A stretch of 64,000 nucleotides of DNA from a virus (IMGVR_UViG_3300021431_000084); one strand, 5' to 3'; shown: positions 22,776-32,049, counted from the first letter of the stretch. Numbers and translations are program-made. The notes: generated from the sequence alone by a model not told the origin.

Positions 22776-22886
22776 TGGTGCACGAGGTAGGACTCGAACC
22801 TACACACTACCCATAGTATCTAACATATACCGCGAATCTAATATTAGACTTGTGGGTTAGCCGTCTTCCTGTTGCGGCACTCGTCC
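22776..22886 (-). ncRNA. tRNA-like RNA with branched, expanded anticodon arm
   Basis: acceptor, D, T arms and CCA intact; two hairpins replace the anticodon loop. Confidence 0.7.
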
Positions 22887-23576: not shown

Positions 23577-23673
23577 AATGACGCTTTAAAGCCTCCCATA
23601 GGCGATTACAAATTAAATGGCTTGTAATATAAGAATCGAACTTATTGTTAATTTGATTTGCTGTAAGCGTCAT
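23577..23673 (-). ncRNA. Y-RNA-like RNA A (YrlA-like topology)
   Basis: TGACGCTTACAGCAAA...AAGCGTCATT handle enclosing T-arm, closed stem and D-like arm. Confidence 0.7.
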
Positions 23674-23684
23674 AAAAGAAGTTA

Positions 23685-23782
23685 AATGACCCGAAGTGCT
23701 ACGGGATTCGAACCCGCAATGTTTGATTAGCAGTCAAATTGTTTACCATAAACGAGCGTTTTGATTTGCTGATAAGGGTCAC
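23685..23782 (-). ncRNA. Y-RNA-like RNA B carrying tRNA-Ser(GCT)-like body
   Basis: TGACCCTTATCAGCAAA...GGGTCATT handle enclosing D-arm, TTTGA-CTGCTAA-TCAAA and GCGGG-TTCGAAT-CCCGT. Confidence 0.75.
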
Positions 23783-24058
23783 AAAAAAATAAATTGGGGG
23801 AGAGGGAAGATAGGCGTTCCCCAACGCAATAGTTCCCTCAGGTGGGCTCTTTTTTACCCGCATCACCCAAGTCCGGAGCGGTACATTGACGGCTGTCCGC
23901 AAGCCTCTGGTGGGGATTTTGAAGTATCCCTAAACTTTAGAATGAGAGAAGTTAAGTTCAAATTTGATATTACGATACTGCCCCGCACCTTTTGGATAGT
24001 ACTCTCCAAATGTTCTTCTCTATTAAACTATCACAAATTTGATACTTAAAGTCCTCGT

Positions 24059-24138
24059 TGGTGGAGGATACGGGCACCGACCCCGTCTGAATTTTCTGCT
24101 TGCAAGGCAGACGACCACTCCGAGCAGTCCCATCCCCC
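24059..24138 (-). tRNA. tRNA-Ala(TGC)
   Basis: G3.U70, CCA. Confidence 0.85.
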
Positions 24139-24144
24139 ATAATG

Positions 24145-24204
24145 AATGACGCACATAAAAAGAGATTTCAGGTCTTTTTGTTTTTGCTTTGCTGTTGGCG
24201 TCAT
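24145..24204 (-). ncRNA. Y-RNA-like RNA C (minimal)
   Basis: TGACGCCAACAGCAAA...TGCGTCATT with a single hairpin cargo. Confidence 0.7.
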
Positions 24205-24222
24205 ATAAACTAAGTAAAAGTA

Positions 24223-25624: not shown

Positions 25625-25699
25625 TGGTTGCAGAGGTGGGAGTCGGACCCACTACTTCAAGGTTATGAGCCTTGCGAACAACCGTTGCTCTTCTCTGCT
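25625..25699 (-). tRNA. tRNA-fMet-like (CAT)
   Basis: 1:72 mismatch, ends GCAACCA. Confidence 0.85.
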
Positions 25700-25723
25700 A
25701 TATCTCTTACTTTTTACATATAT

Positions 25724-25752
25724 ATTATAACAAATTTTTTCAAGTTTGTCAA
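25724..25752 (-). promoter_or_regulatory. sigmaA promoter for RNA operon
   Basis: TTGACA-17-TATAAT. Confidence 0.8.
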
Positions 25753-26779: not shown

Positions 26780-26865
26780 AGGTATTAAACCTCTTTCTTA
26801 TTTTTCTTACATATATATTATATCATTTTTTTTCTTGTTTGTCAAGAAAGATTTTTCTGTGGAGA

Positions 26866-28365
26866 TTATCTCTCCACAGAAATTTGTGCATATCTATCAC
26901 TTAAGATAGTGGCAAGCATAGCCTCATAAGGTGTCTTATCAAGATTAGCAAGCAAAGTCTTAAATGTAGTTGCAGAGTGACCAGACAAAAGCTGTACGCC
27001 CTTTCTGTTGGCATCTGCATGGAATGTGTCAGACTGGCTGTTTACATTCCAGAAGATGACGTTAGGAATATCGTAACCGTAGTTAGCGAACTTTCTTCTC
27101 CAATCATCATAGAATGTACCAGAAGCACGAACACAGCCGTTAATCTGCATATCAGAGATAATTACGAGTGCCTTAGGAAGATCCTTAGCGGCGATACGGT
27201 TGTTAACCGCAGTCTCAAGAACTACTCTGAAAGCAGCATCAAGATCTGTACTTCCAGCCCAATCTGCATTAACCATGTTACGAACTCTATCACACACAGT
27301 AGCACCTGTTACAGTAACCAACTTAGGGTTAGTAGAGAAAGTCATGAACTTATTGTGGAAAGGGCCGGTCGCACGCTCTGCGAAGTACATCGCCAAGCCA
27401 ACAGAAGATGCCATAGGCAAGTTGTTGTTGCTAGTCATAGAACCAGATACGTCTGCCATAATGAGTACGTTTGTACCGTCCTCAACATAGTTAGGAAGTG
27501 CCTTCCACTGGGCCTCAAGTACATCGTCTACTGTGCAACGAGAGTTATACCAAAAGCCATAACCACCAGCATTAAGATACTTCTGGACAATATCATAAGG
27601 GAAAAGAGTATTAGCCTTAATCTCCTTCTTACCAGACTTTACATCATCGAGATACTCAACGAATCTTGCACCGTCCTTGCGTGAGAACAAGTTACGATAC
27701 TTAGTCATAGCATTAGAAGGAACCTTATCATATGCGATAGTGCTTAACTCATTTGCAGAGATAGCAATCTCAACAATCTTAAGATACTTACGAAGTGCCT
27801 TAAGAGGTACCTTAAATGAACGAACATTCTTAAATCCCAACTTCTGGGAAGTCAAAATGCCCAACTTACGAGTTGTAGGTGAAGATGCGTCAGGTGTCTT
27901 GATCCACTTCGCAAGAAGTGAAACAGGCTTTCCGGCAAGCATTGCTGCTCTATCCTTCTCGAACTGCTCCTTCATAACTCTCCACATATCGTTCTCACAC
28001 TTAGTTCCGATAAGGAAATACAAGTCATCAAAACGACCATAGTAACCAATAAGACCAATGTTAGGTCTTACAATCTCAGGATATCTATCTGCTGCATATG
28101 CAAGCAAAGTACGGAAAGTATCTCTCTCTCCGAGACCCTCACGAACATCTCTTCCGTAGAAGAGTATCTTTGCGGCGAGCTCCTTGTCCTCTGCGCAGGC
28201 TCTGTCGAAAAGCTCGTATCTACGAGCATCAGGAGCATTACGAAGTGCTCCAATAGTAGCGAAGAGGTCTACAAGACCCTCACCTGAAGATGACAAGCAC
28301 TTTCTACCATTAGCAGTAGAAGTCCAAGAAGTCTCTCTACCAAGTAAATCTGCGAAATTAGCCAT
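26866..28365 (-). CDS. DUF2828-family TROVE/Ro60-like protein with C-terminal vWA domain
   Basis: T.NG....SS....VDLF, LFY.RD.R.G.GER, SLLAKW, V.S.AM..Y...F; MIDAS DVSGSM, FMTFS, ISDMQ, IFWNV; strongly biased codon usage. Confidence 0.85.
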   Translation of the reverse strand: MANFADLLGRETSWTSTANGRKCLSSSGEGLVDLFATIGALRNAPDARRYELFDRACAEDKELAAKILFYGRDVREGLGERDTFRTLLAYAADRYPEIVRPNIGLIGYYGRFDDLYFLIGTKCENDMWRVMKEQFEKDRAAMLAGKPVSLLAKWIKTPDASSPTTRKLGILTSQKLGFKNVRSFKVPLKALRKYLKIVEIAISANELSTIAYDKVPSNAMTKYRNLFSRKDGARFVEYLDDVKSGKKEIKANTLFPYDIVQKYLNAGGYGFWYNSRCTVDDVLEAQWKALPNYVEDGTNVLIMADVSGSMTSNNNLPMASSVGLAMYFAERATGPFHNKFMTFSTNPKLVTVTGATVCDRVRNMVNADWAGSTDLDAAFRVVLETAVNNRIAAKDLPKALVIISDMQINGCVRASGTFYDDWRRKFANYGYDIPNVIFWNVNSQSDTFHADANRKGVQLLSGHSATTFKTLLANLDKTPYEAMLATILSDRYAQISVER

Positions 28366-28397
28366 TGTCTTTTCTCCTTTATCGCTTTAGTTTTTAG

Positions 28398-28485
28398 TGG
28401 CGCTGTGGGAGAGATTCGAACTCTCAGAGCTTTCACACCCGACGGTTTTCAAGACCGCGCCTCCTCCCCACTAAGGTACCACAGC
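28398..28485 (-). tRNA. tRNA-Ser(TGA)
   Basis: long variable arm, CCA. Confidence 0.9.
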
Positions 28486-28514
28486 GTATTTATTTCTTTA
28501 ACTTTTGTATATAT

Positions 28515-28543
28515 ATTATATCAAAAATTTTCTTGTTTGTCAA
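28515..28543 (-). promoter_or_regulatory. sigmaA promoter for tRNA-Ser plus DUF2828 gene
   Basis: TTGACA-17-TATAAT. Confidence 0.8.
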
Positions 28544-28738
28544 TTAAAATTTTTTAGACAAATAAAAAATGTAGGTTTTCCGCACTTCCGTCAATTTCCA
28601 TGCTTGGTGCTTACCCACTATTGGAGATAACTCCTCAACGCGACCTACAAACCCTTTGACTCTATGCCGGTTGTGTTCAGATACCGGAAAACTTTTTGGG
28701 GACTTTGTTTTTATGACGTTGCTCCAACCCTCGTCAAG

Positions 28739-28813
28739 TGGTGCTTGCAGCAGGAATTGAACCCGCACCCTCTGTTCCGTAGACAGAAAGTCTATCCTTT
28801 AGCCTATGCAAGC
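28739..28813 (-). tRNA. tRNA-Arg(ACG)
   Basis: cloverleaf, CCA. Confidence 0.9.
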
Positions 28814-28972
28814 ATTATTTTCTTTTTTCAACTGATGTTTGGCTTCTTCAAGCCAATCACAATATTGAGTGAAAGAACATTCTGAATAAAAACAATTTGG
28901 TGAGTGTCTACGAGAACACATACAACAATGTTTTGTATAAACTATATCTTGAGCCTCCATAAACACTCTCCT

Positions 28973-29698
28973 TTATGCGTAAATAACTGTTTTATCTTCA
29001 AGGCGAATTGCCGCAAGCTTTCCTCCTGCGAATACACACCCACAATCTATATTGATACTATGTTCTCTGAAATATACATCAGACTTATTAGTATCATTCC
29101 ATACAAATTGTGTAGGTGTATGCCCATGAATAAGAATTTCCTCATGCTCAGGCACATAATCATTGGTTAATACATTCGTATAATTGTTAATATCACGATA
29201 CCAAAGAATATCATCACGATTAAGATTAGGACCATACCAAGCATGAGCAATTATATAATCTTGTTTATCTTTAATACTAACCTTTTTATATAAAGGCAAA
29301 GAAGAAAACCAATCTACTATTGGTTTTACTGAAGCAACTGTATCAAACCCAGCTTCAGACATATAAGACACAAAGTCATAAGTACAATCAAGAGCTGAAA
29401 TATCAAAATCGTCCATACTTTGTATAGATGGAGAACACCAACCTTTTAAAAATCTACGATAACAACGATTATAATCATTGATTATATTGTCCTCATGATT
29501 TCCACATATCATTTGGTATTTACCATCTTCGGTGACATGCTCCATGGCCCATTGAATCATTTTATATGACTCAACTCCACGGTCAATAATATCACCTATC
29601 AAAATGATACAATCATCTGGTTCAATATCAGGCATTGATAAGAGTTTCATAAATCTTGTATAACAACCATGAATATCACCAACAACCCAAGTAGCCAT
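28973..29698 (-). CDS. PPP-family Ser/Thr phosphatase-like metallophosphoesterase
   Basis: GDIHG, GDIIDRG, GNHE, HGHTP, IDCG; start trimmed to MATW. Confidence 0.9.
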   Translation of the reverse strand: MATWVVGDIHGCYTRFMKLLSMPDIEPDDCIILIGDIIDRGVESYKMIQWAMEHVTEDGKYQMICGNHEDNIINDYNRCYRRFLKGWCSPSIQSMDDFDISALDCTYDFVSYMSEAGFDTVASVKPIVDWFSSLPLYKKVSIKDKQDYIIAHAWYGPNLNRDDILWYRDINNYTNVLTNDYVPEHEEILIHGHTPTQFVWNDTNKSDVYFREHSINIDCGCVFAGGKLAAIRLEDKTVIYA

Positions 29699-29721
29699 AA
29701 ACATATCTCCTTTCTTTAATT

Positions 29722-29799
29722 TGGAGCTAATGGTGGGATTCGAACCCACGAAACAACAGTTTTGCAAACTGAGGGCTTAAACCACTTACCTACATTAGC
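29722..29799 (-). tRNA. tRNA-Cys(GCA)
   Basis: cloverleaf, U73, CCA. Confidence 0.9.
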
Positions 29800-29805
29800 A
29801 TTTAT

Positions 29806-29925
29806 TGGTGGAAACTGTTGGATTCGAACCAACTCCGCTGCTCCCCAAGTGCATAGAAAACAAGTTGCTGTCTTAATCATAAACATGATCGCGTCTTAAG
29901 CGTGCTACCTTTACACCAAGTTCCC
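29806..29925 (-). ncRNA. tRNA-like RNA whose anticodon arm is replaced by an ACAGCAA-containing domain
   Basis: GGGAACT/AGTTTCC-A-CCA acceptor, D and T arms intact; insert AGACGC..ACAGCAA..TGCACT. Confidence 0.7.
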
Positions 29926-29940
29926 ATATATTGTTTTAGT

Positions 29941-30017
29941 TGGTGCGTACACTTGGACTTGAACCGAGGACCTCTCGCTTATCAGACGAGTGCTCTAACC
30001 TACTGAGCTATGCACGC
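29941..30017 (-). tRNA. tRNA-Ile(GAT)
   Basis: cloverleaf, CCA. Confidence 0.9.
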
Positions 30018-30130
30018 ATAATGATTCAGTAACCACTCGCGTCCCACCACCCTGTTTCATGTGCCAAAGCCTTGTCCGTTACTGAAAGGTACTGGTTTGG
30101 TTTAACCTCCTGAAGCCAGTAAAAGGGAGG

Positions 30131-30206
30131 TGGAGCTTCCAGTGGGGCACGATCCCACGACCTAGTGATTACTAATCACTCGCTCTGCCAACTGAGCTAC
30201 GGAAGC
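30131..30206 (-). tRNA. tRNA-Thr(AGT)
   Basis: loop TTAGTAA, CCA. Confidence 0.9.
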
Positions 30207-30212
30207 ATTAGG

Positions 30213-30288
30213 TGGGGCTGGAGGTGAGACTTGAACTCACAACTTGAAACTTACAGGGTTCCCGCTCTACCATTGGAGCTACTCCAGC
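30213..30288 (-). tRNA. tRNA-Thr(TGT)
   Basis: loop CCTGTAA (C33), CCA. Confidence 0.85.
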
Positions 30289-30293
30289 GTGTA

Positions 30294-30384
30294 AATGACC
30301 CCAGACGCGGTTTCTTCAAAACCGCTTAAAAAACAATGGCGAAGAAAAAATATTTAATCAAGATTGTTTTGCGGTTGAGGTCAT
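30294..30384 (-). ncRNA. Y-RNA-like RNA D
   Basis: TGACCTCAACCGCAAA...GGGGTCATT; hairpin GCGGTT-TTGAAGA-AACCGC. Confidence 0.65.
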
Positions 30385-30391
30385 ATATAAA

Positions 30392-30569
30392 AATGACTGA
30401 TAGGGACTACTTTCTCAGATTTCTGGCGAGTCTACCCCAGTGTGCCTTTTCTGGATAAAAGTTTCATAGGAATAATTTTAGCACTTTTATCAGTCTGCAT
30501 TTCCCATATTTGCATAGTAGAATTTTATACTATAAACCATTTTAATAGAATTTGCAGTTAATCAGTCAC
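30392..30569 (-). ncRNA. Y-RNA-like RNA E (long cargo)
   Basis: TGACTGATTAACTGCAAA...ATCAGTCATT with several internal hairpins. Confidence 0.6.
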
Positions 30570-30574
30570 AAAAA

Positions 30575-30649
30575 TGGCGGTGATACGGGGAATTGAACCC
30601 CGGTCTCTCGGCTGACAACCGAGTATGATTACCACTATACCATACCACC
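30575..30649 (-). tRNA. tRNA-Asp(GTC)
   Basis: cloverleaf, CCA. Confidence 0.9.
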
Positions 30650-30860
30650 GTATAAATGCCCCGTAATATAAATCTGGTATACCAAATATAATATCTACGA
30701 GGACTTTAGGAAATTGAGTTACCTATGTACTCCGATTACGCAACGTGAATTCCCTATACGCCTGCGACATCATTTTCACACAGTACAAACTGGTCGGTTG
30801 ATGTTCACCGCTAAATTGCTAAGTTTAATGACATTGGCGGGTCAATATAATTAAAATAAA

Positions 30861-31577
30861 TTATATACTATTCCATTCTTCATCACTATAAGAGTTTATC
30901 TCTTTTTTAGTGCGAGGTAAATCAAGTTTATCACAATATTTTCTAATAGCATTATCAGAACAATTAAATTGTTTACCTATTGATGTAAAACTCTGTTTTC
31001 GTATTAACTCTTTTAACACTTCTCTTGACATAGGAGCCTCTTCAGCTCTTGCTTTACCAGCACAACTTAAACATCTTATACTGTTTTTGTCAATTTCTTT
31101 TCCACAATCTATACAATAAGTTCTCTTATCTTCTTTTTTAAGATTTTTAGAACCGGTTGTAGGTAATTGCTGATTACAATTAGGACAAACCCATCTGAGA
31201 TTTTCTAATCTATCATCATTGTTTATACCATTTATATGGTCTAAAATAAGAGTTAATTCTTTTCCTTGCCATATAGGTTCTAAATTACAAATAGAACATT
31301 TGTATTCAGAATATTGACCTTTAAGATAAAACTTTCGTAATGTACTTTGGTCAGCCGTAGAATTTAGAACAAAAACATTTTCTTCTGTTCTTTTTATTCC
31401 GGGTTTTTTAACCTTTAAATTAGATACATCTATTTCTTCTTCTTCTATTCTTTTTCTTAAAGAATTATAGCTATCTCCACTTGCTGATATACCTAATTTA
31501 CGCAAGACATCTTTATAAGAAGAACTATTTTTTATTATGTTTTGCAATTCCTCTTTTGAATATTGACTTAACTTCAT
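30861..31577 (-). CDS. HNH homing-type endonuclease
   Basis: C..C....W....L.LDHING..ND.RLENLR.VCPNC; C-terminal Zn finger and HTH. Confidence 0.9.
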   Translation of the reverse strand: MKLSQYSKEELQNIIKNSSSYKDVLRKLGISASGDSYNSLRKRIEEEEIDVSNLKVKKPGIKRTEENVFVLNSTADQSTLRKFYLKGQYSEYKCSICNLEPIWQGKELTLILDHINGINNDDRLENLRWVCPNCNQQLPTTGSKNLKKEDKRTYCIDCGKEIDKNSIRCLSCAGKARAEEAPMSREVLKELIRKQSFTSIGKQFNCSDNAIRKYCDKLDLPRTKKEINSYSDEEWNSI

Positions 31578-31666
31578 TTTATTTTTCTCCTTTTCATATT
31601 ATTCTCTAATATATTATGAAAATTCGAACTAAAGTTTTTGAAGTTTTTGTCCAAAAATTGGTTCGA

Positions 31667-31744
31667 TGGTGACGCGTAGGGGGCTTGAACCCCTAATCTT
31701 CGGGTTGAAGGCCCGATGTGTTGGACCAGTTCCACTAACGCGCC
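31667..31744 (-). tRNA. tRNA-Glu(TTC)
   Basis: cloverleaf, CCA. Confidence 0.9.
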
Positions 31745-31754
31745 ATGTAAATGG

Positions 31755-31960
31755 CTTTAAGGTCAGCCAACCACACATCATTTGCCTTAAAGTATTCAGA
31801 TTTTGTTATCTGGTCCTGTCGGGTTGTTTAAAGTCATTATTCATACTCTACCTGTCCCGACTTACAGACCACCCAAAGTGTTAGCCGTTGAATAATGACT
31901 GTATAAGTTACTGGCTTATTTAACGTCCACGACCTTTAGAAACTTATTAGAAGGACAAAC
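31755..31960 (-). ncRNA. pseudoknotted ~200-nt RNA at 5' end of tRNA operon
   Basis: interleaved stems GTCATTATTCA/TGAATAATGAC and GTCGGG/CCCGAC, closing AAGGTC/GACCTT; promoter at 31995-32023. Confidence 0.6.
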
Positions 31961-32049
31961 GCTTTATCATATCTCTTAACTTTCTTACATATATATTATA
32001 TCATATTTTTTGAAAGTTGTCAATTAAGATTTTTTGGTTAAGAATTTTT

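What the first reader, a model, noticed from the sequence alone, without database searches (positions are those of the whole stretch)
29806..29925. CCA-ended tRNA whose anticodon arm is replaced by the ACAGCAA handle motif
Acceptor, D and T arms and CCA are intact, but a ~65-nt insert reads AGACGC-(hairpin)-AAGACAGCAA...TGCACT, containing the family motif. This is the un-permuted equivalent of YrlA and is potentially chargeable. It could be an evolutionary intermediate between tRNA and Y RNA, or an aminoacyl carrier tethered to the Ro-like protein.
Basis: partly seen in the sequence, partly recalled or inferred. Interest (0 to 1): 0.75.

Follow-up and report, generated by a model that had tools for sequence, protein, structure and literature searches.

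The report
tRNA-shaped RNA carrying Ro60-like handle
Among the tRNA genes of an uncultured phage lies a 120-base RNA that keeps a tRNA's frame and CCA end but carries an extra conserved "handle" arm, which in about 100 other phage loci lies next to a Ro60-like protein gene; it is most likely a partner RNA of that protein, not a working tRNA.

Summary
Window 29806-29925 (minus strand) is a 120-nt tRNA-shaped RNA. It has a 7-bp acceptor stem, D and T arms, A73 and an encoded CCA. Between the D arm and the T arm lie 67 nt that contain a 6-bp hairpin, then AAG, then ACAGCAA.

"Anticodon arm replaced" is only partly right. A degenerate arm with a proline-type UUGGG remains, and several relatives keep a perfect anticodon stem-loop after ACAGCAA. 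The handle is therefore an extra arm inserted at the 26/27 hinge.

The refutation test fails: ACAGCAA and its hairpin are conserved. A covariance model finds about 190 such tRNA-bodied RNAs, all on the strand of a DUF2828 gene and most within about 1.5 kb of it. The DUF2828 protein folds like Ro60.

Best reading (0.6): a non-decoding, tRNA-processed partner RNA of the phage Ro60-like protein, with the opposite topology to the stand-alone handle RNAs nearby. Charging is plausible (G3:U70, A73) but untested, and the CCA is not conserved. It is not a YrlA member and not an evolutionary intermediate.

This scan has noted the handle/DUF2828 family many times on other DNA. I found it in neither Rfam nor the searched literature.

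The parts
29806..29925 (-). Whole 120-nt tRNA-shaped handle RNA, from G1 to the encoded CCA
   Evidence: Rfam tRNA 40.5 bits. Model R1 75.5 bits, E 4e-16. In three close homologues conservation stops exactly at both ends: 12 of 15 columns vary in the 5' flank and 5 of 6 in the 3' flank.
29919..29925 (-). Acceptor stem, 5' strand GGGAACU. It pairs with 29810-29816 and includes G3:U70.
   Evidence: Read. Invariant in the 4 close homologues. Across 26 family members the acceptor stem is 100% paired and all 7 pairs show compensatory changes.
29902..29916 (-). D arm GUGU-AAAGGUA-GCAC, preceded by U8; contains A14 and G18/G19
   Evidence: The stem is invariant in the close homologues. It is 88.5% paired across the family. 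U8, G10, A14 and G18 are invariant columns in A2.
29875..29890 (-). Handle hairpin GAUCAU-GUUU-AUGAUU
   Evidence: Across the family the helix is 95.6% paired and 6 of 7 pairs show compensatory changes. In the close homologues the two stem changes keep pairing (G.U to A-U, U-A to U.G) while the loop varies freely.
29865..29874 (-). AAG spacer plus the single-stranded ACAGCAA motif (29865-29871)
   Evidence: No substitution in the 4 close homologues. A55, C56, G58, C59 and A61 are invariant columns and A57 and A60 nearly invariant in 26 diverse members. In the flanks of DUF2828 genes the motif occurs 343 times on the gene strand against 16 expected.
29838..29854 (-). Degenerate anticodon-arm position: AUGCA-CUUGGGG-AGCAG, with 3 Watson-Crick pairs and a proline-type UUGGG
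   Evidence: MAFFT places it in the columns that hold canonical anticodon stem-loops in L041, L103 and L040/L047. The loop is 7, 8 or 10 nt in the close homologues while UUGGG is kept. An alternative G.U-rich hairpin is predicted, but only 5 of its pairs are conserved.
29817..29833 (-). T arm GUUGG-UUCGAAU-CCAAC
   Evidence: 100% paired across the family, with 4 of 5 pairs showing compensatory changes and the T-loop nearly invariant.
29806..29816 (-). Acceptor stem 3' strand AGUUUCC, discriminator A73, encoded CCA
   Evidence: All 31 ordinary tRNA genes of the window also encode CCA. The end reads CCA in the window and L106, and UCA in L108 and L110.
26866..28365 (-). Gene for the DUF2828 + DUF7788 (vWA) protein, the presumed partner
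   Evidence: Pfam PF11443 6.5e-36 and PF25043 1.4e-41. phrog_850 'RNA-binding protein' 3e-124. AlphaFold model pLDDT 83.7, pTM 0.83. The 11 best listed Foldseek rows (ranks 1-13) are all Ro60/TROVE structures, TM up to 0.6, E down to 3e-9.
31995..32023 (-). Consensus promoter-like site (TTGACA-17-TATAAT) upstream of the run of tRNA genes that holds the element
   Evidence: 12 of 12 consensus matches with a TG extension. A second such site lies at 28515-28543. A terminator-like hairpin at 26854-26882 closes the DUF2828 gene. These are pattern matches only.

Best explanation
The element is a non-decoding, tRNA-shaped small RNA. It belongs to an undescribed family in which a 'handle' marks RNAs that travel with a phage Ro60-like (DUF2828) protein. 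The handle is a 6-7-bp helix with a conserved GUGA/UCAU end, then 2-3 nt, then single-stranded ACAGCAA.

Inferred mechanism:
1. The RNA is transcribed with the tRNA cluster.
2. Its canonical acceptor, D and T arms fold into a tRNA elbow. RNase P and the 3'-end/CCA machinery then cut it to exact tRNA-like ends and it is stable.
3. The handle projects as a fifth arm from the hinge between the D stem and the anticodon stem (positions 26/27). It is the docking site for the ring-shaped protein: the helix lies on the surface and the single strand goes in or near the hole, as Ro60 holds its RNAs.
4. The tRNA body is the 'cargo' shown to tRNA-handling factors.
5. The anticodon arm of this copy has decayed, so it does not decode.
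6. With G1:C72, G2:C71, G3:U70 and A73 it may be charged with alanine.

Shown here: the structure, the conservation, and the linkage to the gene. Inferred: protein binding, processing, and charging.
For: Structure:
- tRNA model 40.5 bits.
- Across 26 diverse members the acceptor and T stems are 100% paired and the handle helix 95.6% paired. Compensatory changes occur in 24 of 28 pairs, and 0 of 500 shuffles reach this.

Constraint among 4 close copies:
- 0 of 32 body-stem positions vary.
- 2 of 12 handle-stem positions vary, and both changes keep pairing.
- No substitution in AAG+ACAGCAA.
- 21 of 69 loop/linker columns and 17 of 21 flank columns vary (Fisher p 4.5e-4).

Linkage to the gene:
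- ACAGCAA occurs 343 times on the gene strand in the flanks of 110 distinct DUF2828 loci, against 16 expected. On the opposite strand it occurs 27 times against 12 expected. 99 of the 110 loci have at least one copy.
- Model R1 finds 150 tRNA-bodied handle RNAs in 73 of 86 viral loci. It finds about 40 more in metagenome loci whose DUF2828 proteins share as little as 35% identity with the window's. All lie on the gene strand.

Partner fold: the 11 best listed Foldseek rows (ranks 1-13) are all Ro60/TROVE structures.

Not a decoder:
- No canonical anticodon stem-loop in any of the 4 close copies.
- The phage already has a tRNA-Pro(UGG).
- Orthologous bodies in other phages show different anticodons: GGA in L040, GGU in L047. 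Class I bodies show Tyr and Ser anticodons, whose bacterial tRNAs have long variable arms (established knowledge).

Same helix in both topologies: GUGAC.../...GUCAU is the helix end in the stand-alone forms and the hairpin apex in the embedded forms.

Precedent: M. smegmatis YrlA is cut by RNase P, receives CCA and stays bound to its Ro60 (PMC4201824).
Against: - No binding, expression or processing data exist.
- The gene lies 1.4 kb away, with a phosphatase gene and three tRNA genes in between. In L110 the distance is only 450 nt.
- The folding energy of the sequence is no better than that of shuffles: z -0.40.
- Between the window and L108 the element differs at about 10% of positions, while the neighbouring tRNAs (Thr, Thr, Asp, Arg) are identical and a nearby spacer is 99% identical. 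This copy may be drifting, or it may have been exchanged by recombination.
- The Levitt pair A15:U48 of the three homologues reads A15.A48 here.
- The ACAGCAA handle differs from the Ro60-binding GNCGAA helix of known Y RNAs.
Confidence: 0.6

Rival explanations
1. It is an intron-containing tRNA-Pro(UGG). The roughly 46-nt handle segment between positions 26 and 27 is cut out and the halves are joined, giving a normal tRNA.
For: Removing nt 26-71 leaves a 74-nt tRNA-like sequence with the loop CUUGGGG, a 4-nt variable loop like that of the phage's own tRNA-Pro, and A73. In L041, L103, L081, L040 and L047, removing the handle would leave a canonical cloverleaf. Another reader of this scan read the stretch this way.
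Against: - The leftover anticodon stem has only 3 pairs, flanked by A.G and A.A mismatches.
- The loop is 8 or 10 nt in the three close homologues.
- A normal tRNA-Pro(UGG) is present in the window and in L110.
- No Rfam intron family matches, and 46 nt is far too short for a group I core (established knowledge).
- The same handle occurs as the terminal helix of stand-alone RNAs that are not inside tRNAs.
- Some displayed anticodons disagree with the class of the tRNA body.
Confidence: 0.07
2. It is a working tRNA that keeps the extra arm and decodes on the ribosome. The handle recruits the Ro60-like protein, for example to shield or check the tRNA.
For: The acceptor, D and T arms, the tertiary-contact nucleotides and the CCA are intact. 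Some relatives keep perfect anticodon stem-loops, and a compensatory change supports one of them (A-U in L040 to G-C in L047).
Against: - This copy and its three close homologues lack a 5-bp stem with a 7-nt anticodon loop.
- G3:U70 would, by the established identity rule, give alanine on a proline-type anticodon.
- Anticodons change on otherwise identical bodies, and Ser and Tyr anticodons sit on class I bodies.
- A helix projecting from the 26/27 hinge has no precedent in a decoding tRNA (established knowledge).
Confidence: 0.07
3. It is a dead tRNA gene: a handle module was copied into a tRNA gene and the gene is decaying without function.
For: The anticodon arm is degenerate. The window copy carries several changes of its own relative to three homologues and is more diverged from L108 than its surroundings are. 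The Levitt pair is lost.
Against: - Substitutions avoid all 32 body-stem positions and the motif, and the two handle-stem changes keep pairing.
- The element is 88% identical to its L110 copy, where third codon positions of the neighbouring gene are 72% identical and a spacer is 65% identical.
- The same design is kept in about 190 copies with many different bodies, with compensatory changes.
Confidence: 0.1
4. It is a decoy or bait for host enzymes that attack tRNAs (anticodon nucleases, or enzymes that modify the acceptor end). It acts with or without the Ro60-like protein and spares the real tRNAs.
For: - It sits in a 32-tRNA array.
- Family members display anticodon loops just after ACAGCAA. 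Among 71 canonical ones, GUU (25), GCU (12), UUU (9) and GGU (5) dominate.
- The neighbouring metallophosphoesterase resembles the phosphoesterase part of a family annotated as RNA ligase (phrog_8238, 2.2e-15).
- Published comparative genomics sees phage TROVE proteins as RNA-repair platforms with a tRNA-like partner (PMC7824862).
Against: Purely circumstantial. This copy shows no intact anticodon loop. No nuclease target is known. This reading overlaps with the best explanation rather than excluding it.
Confidence: 0.12

Closest known systems
YrlA and other bacterial and phage Y RNAs bound by Ro60/Rsr (Rfam RF02553; Chen et al. [quoted passage not shown]
   Same: A small RNA encoded beside a Ro60-fold protein gene. 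It combines a protein-binding module with a tRNA-like acceptor/D/T module. The M. smegmatis form ends up with a free, CCA-tailed acceptor end.
   Different: - The RF02553 model does not match the element. The only YrlA-model hit in the region, 20.2 bits against a gathering score of 69, lies on two ordinary tRNAs.
- The GNCGAA motif of the Ro60-binding helix is absent; the handle is a helix plus ACAGCAA.
- The handle is an internal hairpin, not the helix made by the RNA's ends.
- The partner protein matches DUF2828 and DUF7788 and no TROVE family in Pfam. It resembles Ro60 only by fold.
tmRNA
   Same: A tRNA-like acceptor/T module with G3:U70 and CCA, with foreign sequence where the anticodon arm should be. 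tmRNA is charged with alanine (established knowledge).
   Different: No tag reading frame with a stop codon, no pseudoknots, and only 120 nt. The tmRNA models score 10 bits against a gathering score of 47. The D arm is complete. G3:U70 is not a feature of the family: 2 of 26 members have it.
Class I RNAs of dictyostelid amoebae (Rfam RF01414; Kjellin et al. 2021, PMC7919456)
   Same: The consensus of that family is a 6-bp end-to-end stem followed directly by CUUACAGCAA. This is the same signature as the stand-alone phage handle RNAs, for example GACGCUU-ACAGCAA at window 23664.
   Different: In this element the helix is a closed hairpin and the spacer is AAG. The RF01414 model gives only 17.1 bits against a gathering score of 41.5, and on a neighbouring RNA, not on this one. 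The known partner there is an RRM protein. The hosts are eukaryotes.
Intron-containing tRNA genes (bacterial group I introns; archaeal bulge-helix-bulge introns)
   Same: A tRNA gene interrupted near the anticodon arm by extra sequence.
   Different: The insert sits at 26/27, is about 46 nt long, matches no intron family, is conserved as a motif in its own right, and also occurs outside tRNAs.

Membership tests
tRNA (Rfam RF00005) | Score at or above the family's gathering score (29 bits) | tested here: met
   40.5 bits with permissive filters. Not listed in the default-filter scan of the whole window.
tRNA (Rfam RF00005) | 7-bp acceptor stem, D arm, T arm with a GTTCRANNC loop, and the conserved U8, A14, G18, G19 | tested here: met
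   Read directly. These are invariant columns in A2.
tRNA (Rfam RF00005) | Anticodon arm with a 5-bp stem and a 7-nt loop (U33, purine 37), directly after position 26 | tested here: not met
   46 extra nt follow position 26. The candidate arm has 3 pairs. Its loop is 7, 8, 10 and 10 nt in the four close copies. Default ARAGORN does not call the element. The intron-mode call (His, AUG, with C37) is forced.
YrlA (Rfam RF02553) | Covariance-model score at or above 69 bits | tested here: not met
   No YrlA hit on the element at E up to 10.
YrlA (Rfam RF02553) | Ro60-binding helix formed by the 5' and 3' ends, with the GNCGAAN0-1G motif (PMC4201824) | tested here: not met
   The motif is absent from the sequence. 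The ends form a tRNA acceptor stem instead.
YrlA (Rfam RF02553) | tRNA-like acceptor/D/T module | tested here: met
YrlA (Rfam RF02553) | Encoded next to, and bound by, a Ro60 orthologue | tested here: inconclusive
   The neighbouring gene has a Ro60 fold but a different sequence family. Binding cannot be tested with these tools.
Helix + ACAGCAA 'handle' RNAs linked to DUF2828 (undescribed; defined by this scan) | A 6-7-bp covarying helix with a GUGA/UCAU end, then 2-3 nt, then ACAGCAA | tested here: met
   GAUCAU/AUGAUU + AAG + ACAGCAA. Helix covariation. Consensus of both topologies.
Helix + ACAGCAA 'handle' RNAs linked to DUF2828 (undescribed; defined by this scan) | Same strand as a DUF2828 gene and close to it | tested here: met
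   1.44 kb upstream on the same strand, and 450 nt upstream in L110. Family-wide enrichment of 343 against 16 expected.
tmRNA | Tag reading frame, pseudoknots, model score | tested here: not met
   10.1 bits against a gathering score of 47. No frame after ACAGCAA ends in a stop codon inside the RNA.
Dictyostelid Class I RNA (RF01414) | End-to-end 6-bp stem plus the 11-nt motif; model score at or above 41.5 bits | tested here: not met
   No hit on the element. 17.1 bits on the neighbouring RNA at 23731-23782.
Group I intron in a tRNA | Conserved catalytic core (P3-P8), more than 200 nt | tested here: not met
   The insert is about 46 nt and matches no intron family.
Archaeal-type tRNA intron | Bulge-helix-bulge motif at the exon-intron junctions | not tested
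   No dedicated search was run. No splicing endonuclease gene turned up among the 15 ORFs I scanned against Pfam or PHROGs.

The most novel reading that the evidence does not exclude
The RNA is really aminoacylated (with alanine, through G3:U70/A73), so the phage makes a charged, tRNA-shaped Y-like RNA. This would couple a Ro60-like ring to an aminoacyl-tRNA synthetase, EF-Tu or the ribosome. That would be a second tmRNA-like principle, or a bait for host enzymes that attack charged tRNA ends.
Probability: 0.1. Interest if true: 0.85.

Novelty: new variant of a known kind. Interest (0 to 1): 0.62.

Why it matters
Ro60 and its Y RNAs are a classic RNA-protein particle whose bacterial and phage forms mimic tRNA for reasons nobody understands. 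Here a second, sequence-unrelated Ro60-fold protein family is linked to RNAs with a different handle. This element shows that the handle can be plugged into a complete, end-processed tRNA frame, not only wrapped around tRNA pieces.

That makes direct tests possible:
- Does the protein bind the handle?
- Does the tRNA body recruit RNase P, the CCA-adding enzyme, a synthetase or EF-Tu?
- Does the particle act in the contest over tRNAs between phage and host?

About 190 further copies of the design were found here, with arrays of 3-5 per locus. It may therefore be a main form of these RNAs in the phage clade that supplied most of the loci sampled here.

Tried and rejected
- Megablast of 28000-32000 against deposited phage genomes: no match.
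- Exact 28-nt pattern from the insert in viral contigs: no match.
- No whole genome is held for this window.
- ARAGORN in intron mode gives tRNA-His(AUG) with a 38-nt intron at 31/32 and C37. I rejected this as forced.
- Single-sequence folding is not informative. The MFE is no better than shuffles (z -0.40). Four hand-built models all lie at -18 to -21 kcal/mol.
- The 10-bp G.U-rich hairpin of the constrained MFE (-29.2) loses its outer pairs in all three close homologues.
- A closing helix AAGAC/GUUUU, and an extended anticodon stem GCUU.AAG/CUU.GAGC, are not kept in the homologues either.
- ACAGCAA is not enriched window-wide.
- A profile search of the protein against PDB sequences found no Ro60. 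Only the fold comparison did.
- The comparison of divergence with the flanks gave mixed answers: more conserved than neutral sites against L110, about equal against L106, and less conserved than the flanks against L108.
- The tRNA body cannot be assigned to one isotype. The 5' half is closest to tRNA-Gly(UCC) and tRNA-Gln, and the 3' half to tRNA-Phe.
- G3:U70 is not enriched in the family (2 of 26).
- A loose first scanner gave 866 mostly spurious candidates and was replaced.

Full report
**What is there**

On the minus strand, 29806-29925 reads as a tRNA with extra sequence in the middle. In order:
- acceptor 5' strand GGGAACU, then UG
- D arm GUGU-AAAGGUA-GCAC, then G
- linker CUUAAGACGC
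- hairpin GAUCAU-GUUU-AUGAUU
- AAG, then ACAGCAA
- CUUGUUUUCU
- AUGCA-CUUGGGG-AGCAG, then CGGA
- T arm GUUGG-UUCGAAU-CCAAC
- acceptor 3' strand AGUUUCC, then A and CCA

The Rfam tRNA model scores it 40.5 bits (gathering score 29) and places a 59-nt insertion inside the anticodon arm. Default ARAGORN does not call it. In intron mode ARAGORN forces an implausible tRNA-His(AUG).

The element lies in a one-stranded array of 32 tRNA genes. It starts 15 nt after tRNA-Ile(GAU) and ends 6 nt before tRNA-Cys(GCA). All 31 ordinary tRNA genes of the window encode CCA, as this element does.

**Surroundings**

- 1.44 kb downstream on the same strand lies a 499-aa gene with DUF2828 and DUF7788/vWA domains. 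It matches phrog_850, 'RNA-binding protein'.
- An AlphaFold model built from ten homologues (pLDDT 83.7, pTM 0.83) matches Ro60/TROVE structures in all 11 best listed Foldseek rows (ranks 1-13). These include Thermus phage phiLo Ro60 at E 3e-9 and Xenopus Ro60 at TM about 0.6. Sequence profiles do not reach Ro60.
- Between the gene and the element lie a metallophosphoesterase gene and three tRNA genes. That protein also matches the phosphoesterase part of a family annotated as RNA ligase.
- Consensus promoter-like sites and a terminator-like hairpin at the end of the DUF2828 gene fit rightward-to-leftward transcription through the whole block. These are pattern matches only.

**Is the motif conserved?

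It is.
- In 110 distinct loci that encode a DUF2828 relative, ACAGCAA occurs 343 times on the gene strand within -1500 to +600 nt of the gene, against 16 expected. On the other strand it occurs 27 times against 12 expected. 99 of the 110 loci have at least one copy.
- Many of these copies sit inside tRNA-shaped RNAs of 107-137 nt built like the window element.
- In an alignment of 26 diverse members (A2), the tRNA tertiary-contact nucleotides, the T-loop and ACAGCAA are invariant or nearly so.
- Pair counts on A2 give acceptor and T stems 100% paired, the D stem 88.5% and the handle hairpin 95.6%. Compensatory changes occur in 24 of 28 pairs. No shuffle out of 500, and no slid register, comes close.
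- A covariance model of this design (R1) scores the window element 75.5 bits (E 4e-16), while ordinary tRNAs score 42 bits or less.
- R1 finds 150 copies in 73 of 86 viral loci. It finds about 40 more in metagenome loci whose DUF2828 proteins share as little as 35% identity with the window's. All are on the gene strand, often in tandem arrays of 3-5.

**Close homologues**

Three contigs carry copies that are 85-88% identical by blastn: L108, L106 and L110.

| Region | Columns that vary |
|---|---|
| Body stems | 0 of 32 |
| Handle stem | 2 of 12, both keep pairing |
| AAG + ACAGCAA | no substitution (one C inserted after the motif in L110) |
| Loops and linkers | 21 of 69 |
| Flanks | 17 of 21 |

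Stems plus motif against loops gives Fisher p 4.5e-4. Conservation stops exactly at G1 and at the 3' end. The neighbouring genes differ: in L110 the tRNA-Cys and phosphatase genes are missing and the element lies 450 nt from the DUF2828 gene.

Two caveats:
- The 3' end reads CCA in two copies and UCA in the other two.
- The window copy differs from the L108 copy at about 10% of positions, although the flanking tRNAs are identical and a spacer is 99% identical. Against L110 it is better conserved than third codon positions (72%) and a spacer (65%). The region is mosaic, so a simple rate test is ambiguous.

**Is the anticodon arm replaced?**

Not quite.
- In several lineages a canonical anticodon stem-loop follows ACAGCAA and ends 4-5 nt before the T stem:

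| Locus | Anticodon shown |
|---|---|
| L041 | GUU |
| L103 | UUA |
| L081 | GUA |
| L040 | GGA |
| L047 | GGU |
| L162 | GUU |

- The handle is therefore an extra arm inserted between positions 26 and 27.
- L041 and L103 share the window's local sequence (GCGC-hairpin-AAG-ACAGCAA).
- MAFFT puts the window's AUGCA-CUUGGGG-AGCAG in the same columns as those anticodon arms.
- In the window only three pairs can form. In the close homologues the loop is 8 or 10 nt, although UUGGG, as in tRNA-Pro(UGG), is kept.
- Thermodynamic models do not choose among the alternatives.
- The phage has a normal tRNA-Pro(UGG) as well.

Evidence from other family members argues that the displayed loop is uncoupled from aminoacylation identity and that these RNAs are not decoders:
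- Orthologous bodies carry different anticodons: GGA in L040 and GGU in L047, with a compensatory change in the stem.
- Tyr and Ser anticodons sit on class I bodies.

**Topology**

The stand-alone handle RNAs, in this window at about 23600-23790, 24140-24210 and 30300-30570 (minus strand), have the helix made by their 5' and 3' ends: GUGACRC...GYGUCAU, followed on the 5' side by 2 nt and ACAGCAA. In the tRNA-bodied form the same helix, with the same GUGA/UCAU end, is closed by a short loop and the tRNA's own ends are free.

A published precedent exists. M. smegmatis YrlA is cleaved by RNase P, gains CCA and remains bound to its Ro60 (PMC4201824).

**Charging**

The acceptor stem has G1:C72, G2:C71, G3:U70 and A73. 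In the window only tRNA-Ala shares G3:U70, and the pair is kept in all four close copies. By the established alanine identity rule this predicts alanylation. That is an inference. In the family at large G3:U70 is no more common than other G.U pairs (2 of 26).

**Comparison with known families**

- It is not YrlA by model or by motif.
- It is not tmRNA.
- The handle signature equals the stem + CUUACAGCAA consensus of dictyostelid Class I RNAs in Rfam, but the scores are far below threshold.
- I found no paper on DUF2828 function and no Rfam family for the handle.
- Published work sees phage TROVE proteins as RNA-repair platforms with tRNA-like partners (PMC7824862). It also shows a phage Ro60 that binds Y-like RNAs and host PNPase (PMC12135203).
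- Notes of this scan report the handle/DUF2828 family in over 100 other genomes. One note reads this same stretch as an interrupted tRNA-Pro. I tested that reading and find it unlikely.

**Verdict**

This is a real, conserved, tRNA-shaped member of an undescribed family of Y-RNA-like RNAs. It most likely docks the phage Ro60-like protein through its handle arm and is matured like a tRNA. Binding, charging and biological role remain untested.

Noticed in passing
window 23578-23790, 24140-24210, 30300-30570 (minus strand): Stand-alone handle RNAs sit in the spacers between tRNA genes. Each has an end-to-end helix (AUGACGC.../...GCGUCAU), then ACAGCAA or a near variant, then cargo that looks like T arms or anticodon arms (for example UUUGA-CUGCUAA-UCAAA). 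They are the permuted counterparts of the element studied here.
   Followed up: partly
DUF2828 loci L001-L183: 71 canonical anticodon stem-loops lie within 40 nt after ACAGCAA. Among them GUU (25), GCU (12), UUU (9) and GGU (5) dominate. All four have U36-A37, that is, tRNAs that read codons starting with A. Canonical 5-bp/7-nt hairpins, T arms included, follow 137 of 413 motif copies, against 6.8% of random positions.
   Followed up: partly
window 23731-23782 (minus strand) and Rfam RF01414: The Rfam consensus of dictyostelid Class I RNAs (a 6-bp terminal stem followed by CUUACAGCAA) carries the same signature as the phage handle. The model scores only 17.1 bits here, against a gathering score of 41.5.
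   Followed up: partly
window 25628-25699 (minus strand): A tRNA with a CAU anticodon loop, found by Rfam at 44.4 bits but missed by ARAGORN. It is preceded by a consensus TTGACA-17-TATAAT promoter-like site at about 25723-25751.
   Followed up: no
window 22776-22886 (minus strand): A 111-nt tRNA-like RNA ending in ACCA, with a long insert and no ACAGCAA (R1 28.2 bits). It probably belongs to a different family of insert-bearing tRNA-like RNAs.
   Followed up: no
window 24059-24138 (minus strand): An 80-nt tRNA-Ala(UGC) with G3:U70, called by ARAGORN but absent from the Rfam gathering-threshold list. Its D region is unusual.
   Followed up: no
window 28000-32000 compared with L108, L106 and L110: The tRNA array is a mosaic. 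Between close relatives some tRNA genes are 100% identical, while others in the same positions are only 57-76% identical (Ser-UGA, Glu-UUC, Thr-UGU, Arg-ACG). This suggests cassette exchange.
   Followed up: partly
window 30018-30130 (minus strand): A 113-nt spacer between tRNA-Thr(AGU) and tRNA-Ile, with a 9-bp inverted repeat (CAGUAAC.../...GUUACUG). Its folding energy is not better than that of shuffles (z 0.87).
   Followed up: partly
L002 9755-9844 and many related loci: A shorter (about 90 nt) tRNA-bodied handle RNA with an ACUGCAA variant of the motif. It has no anticodon-position region at all and lies directly after the 113-nt form.
   Followed up: no
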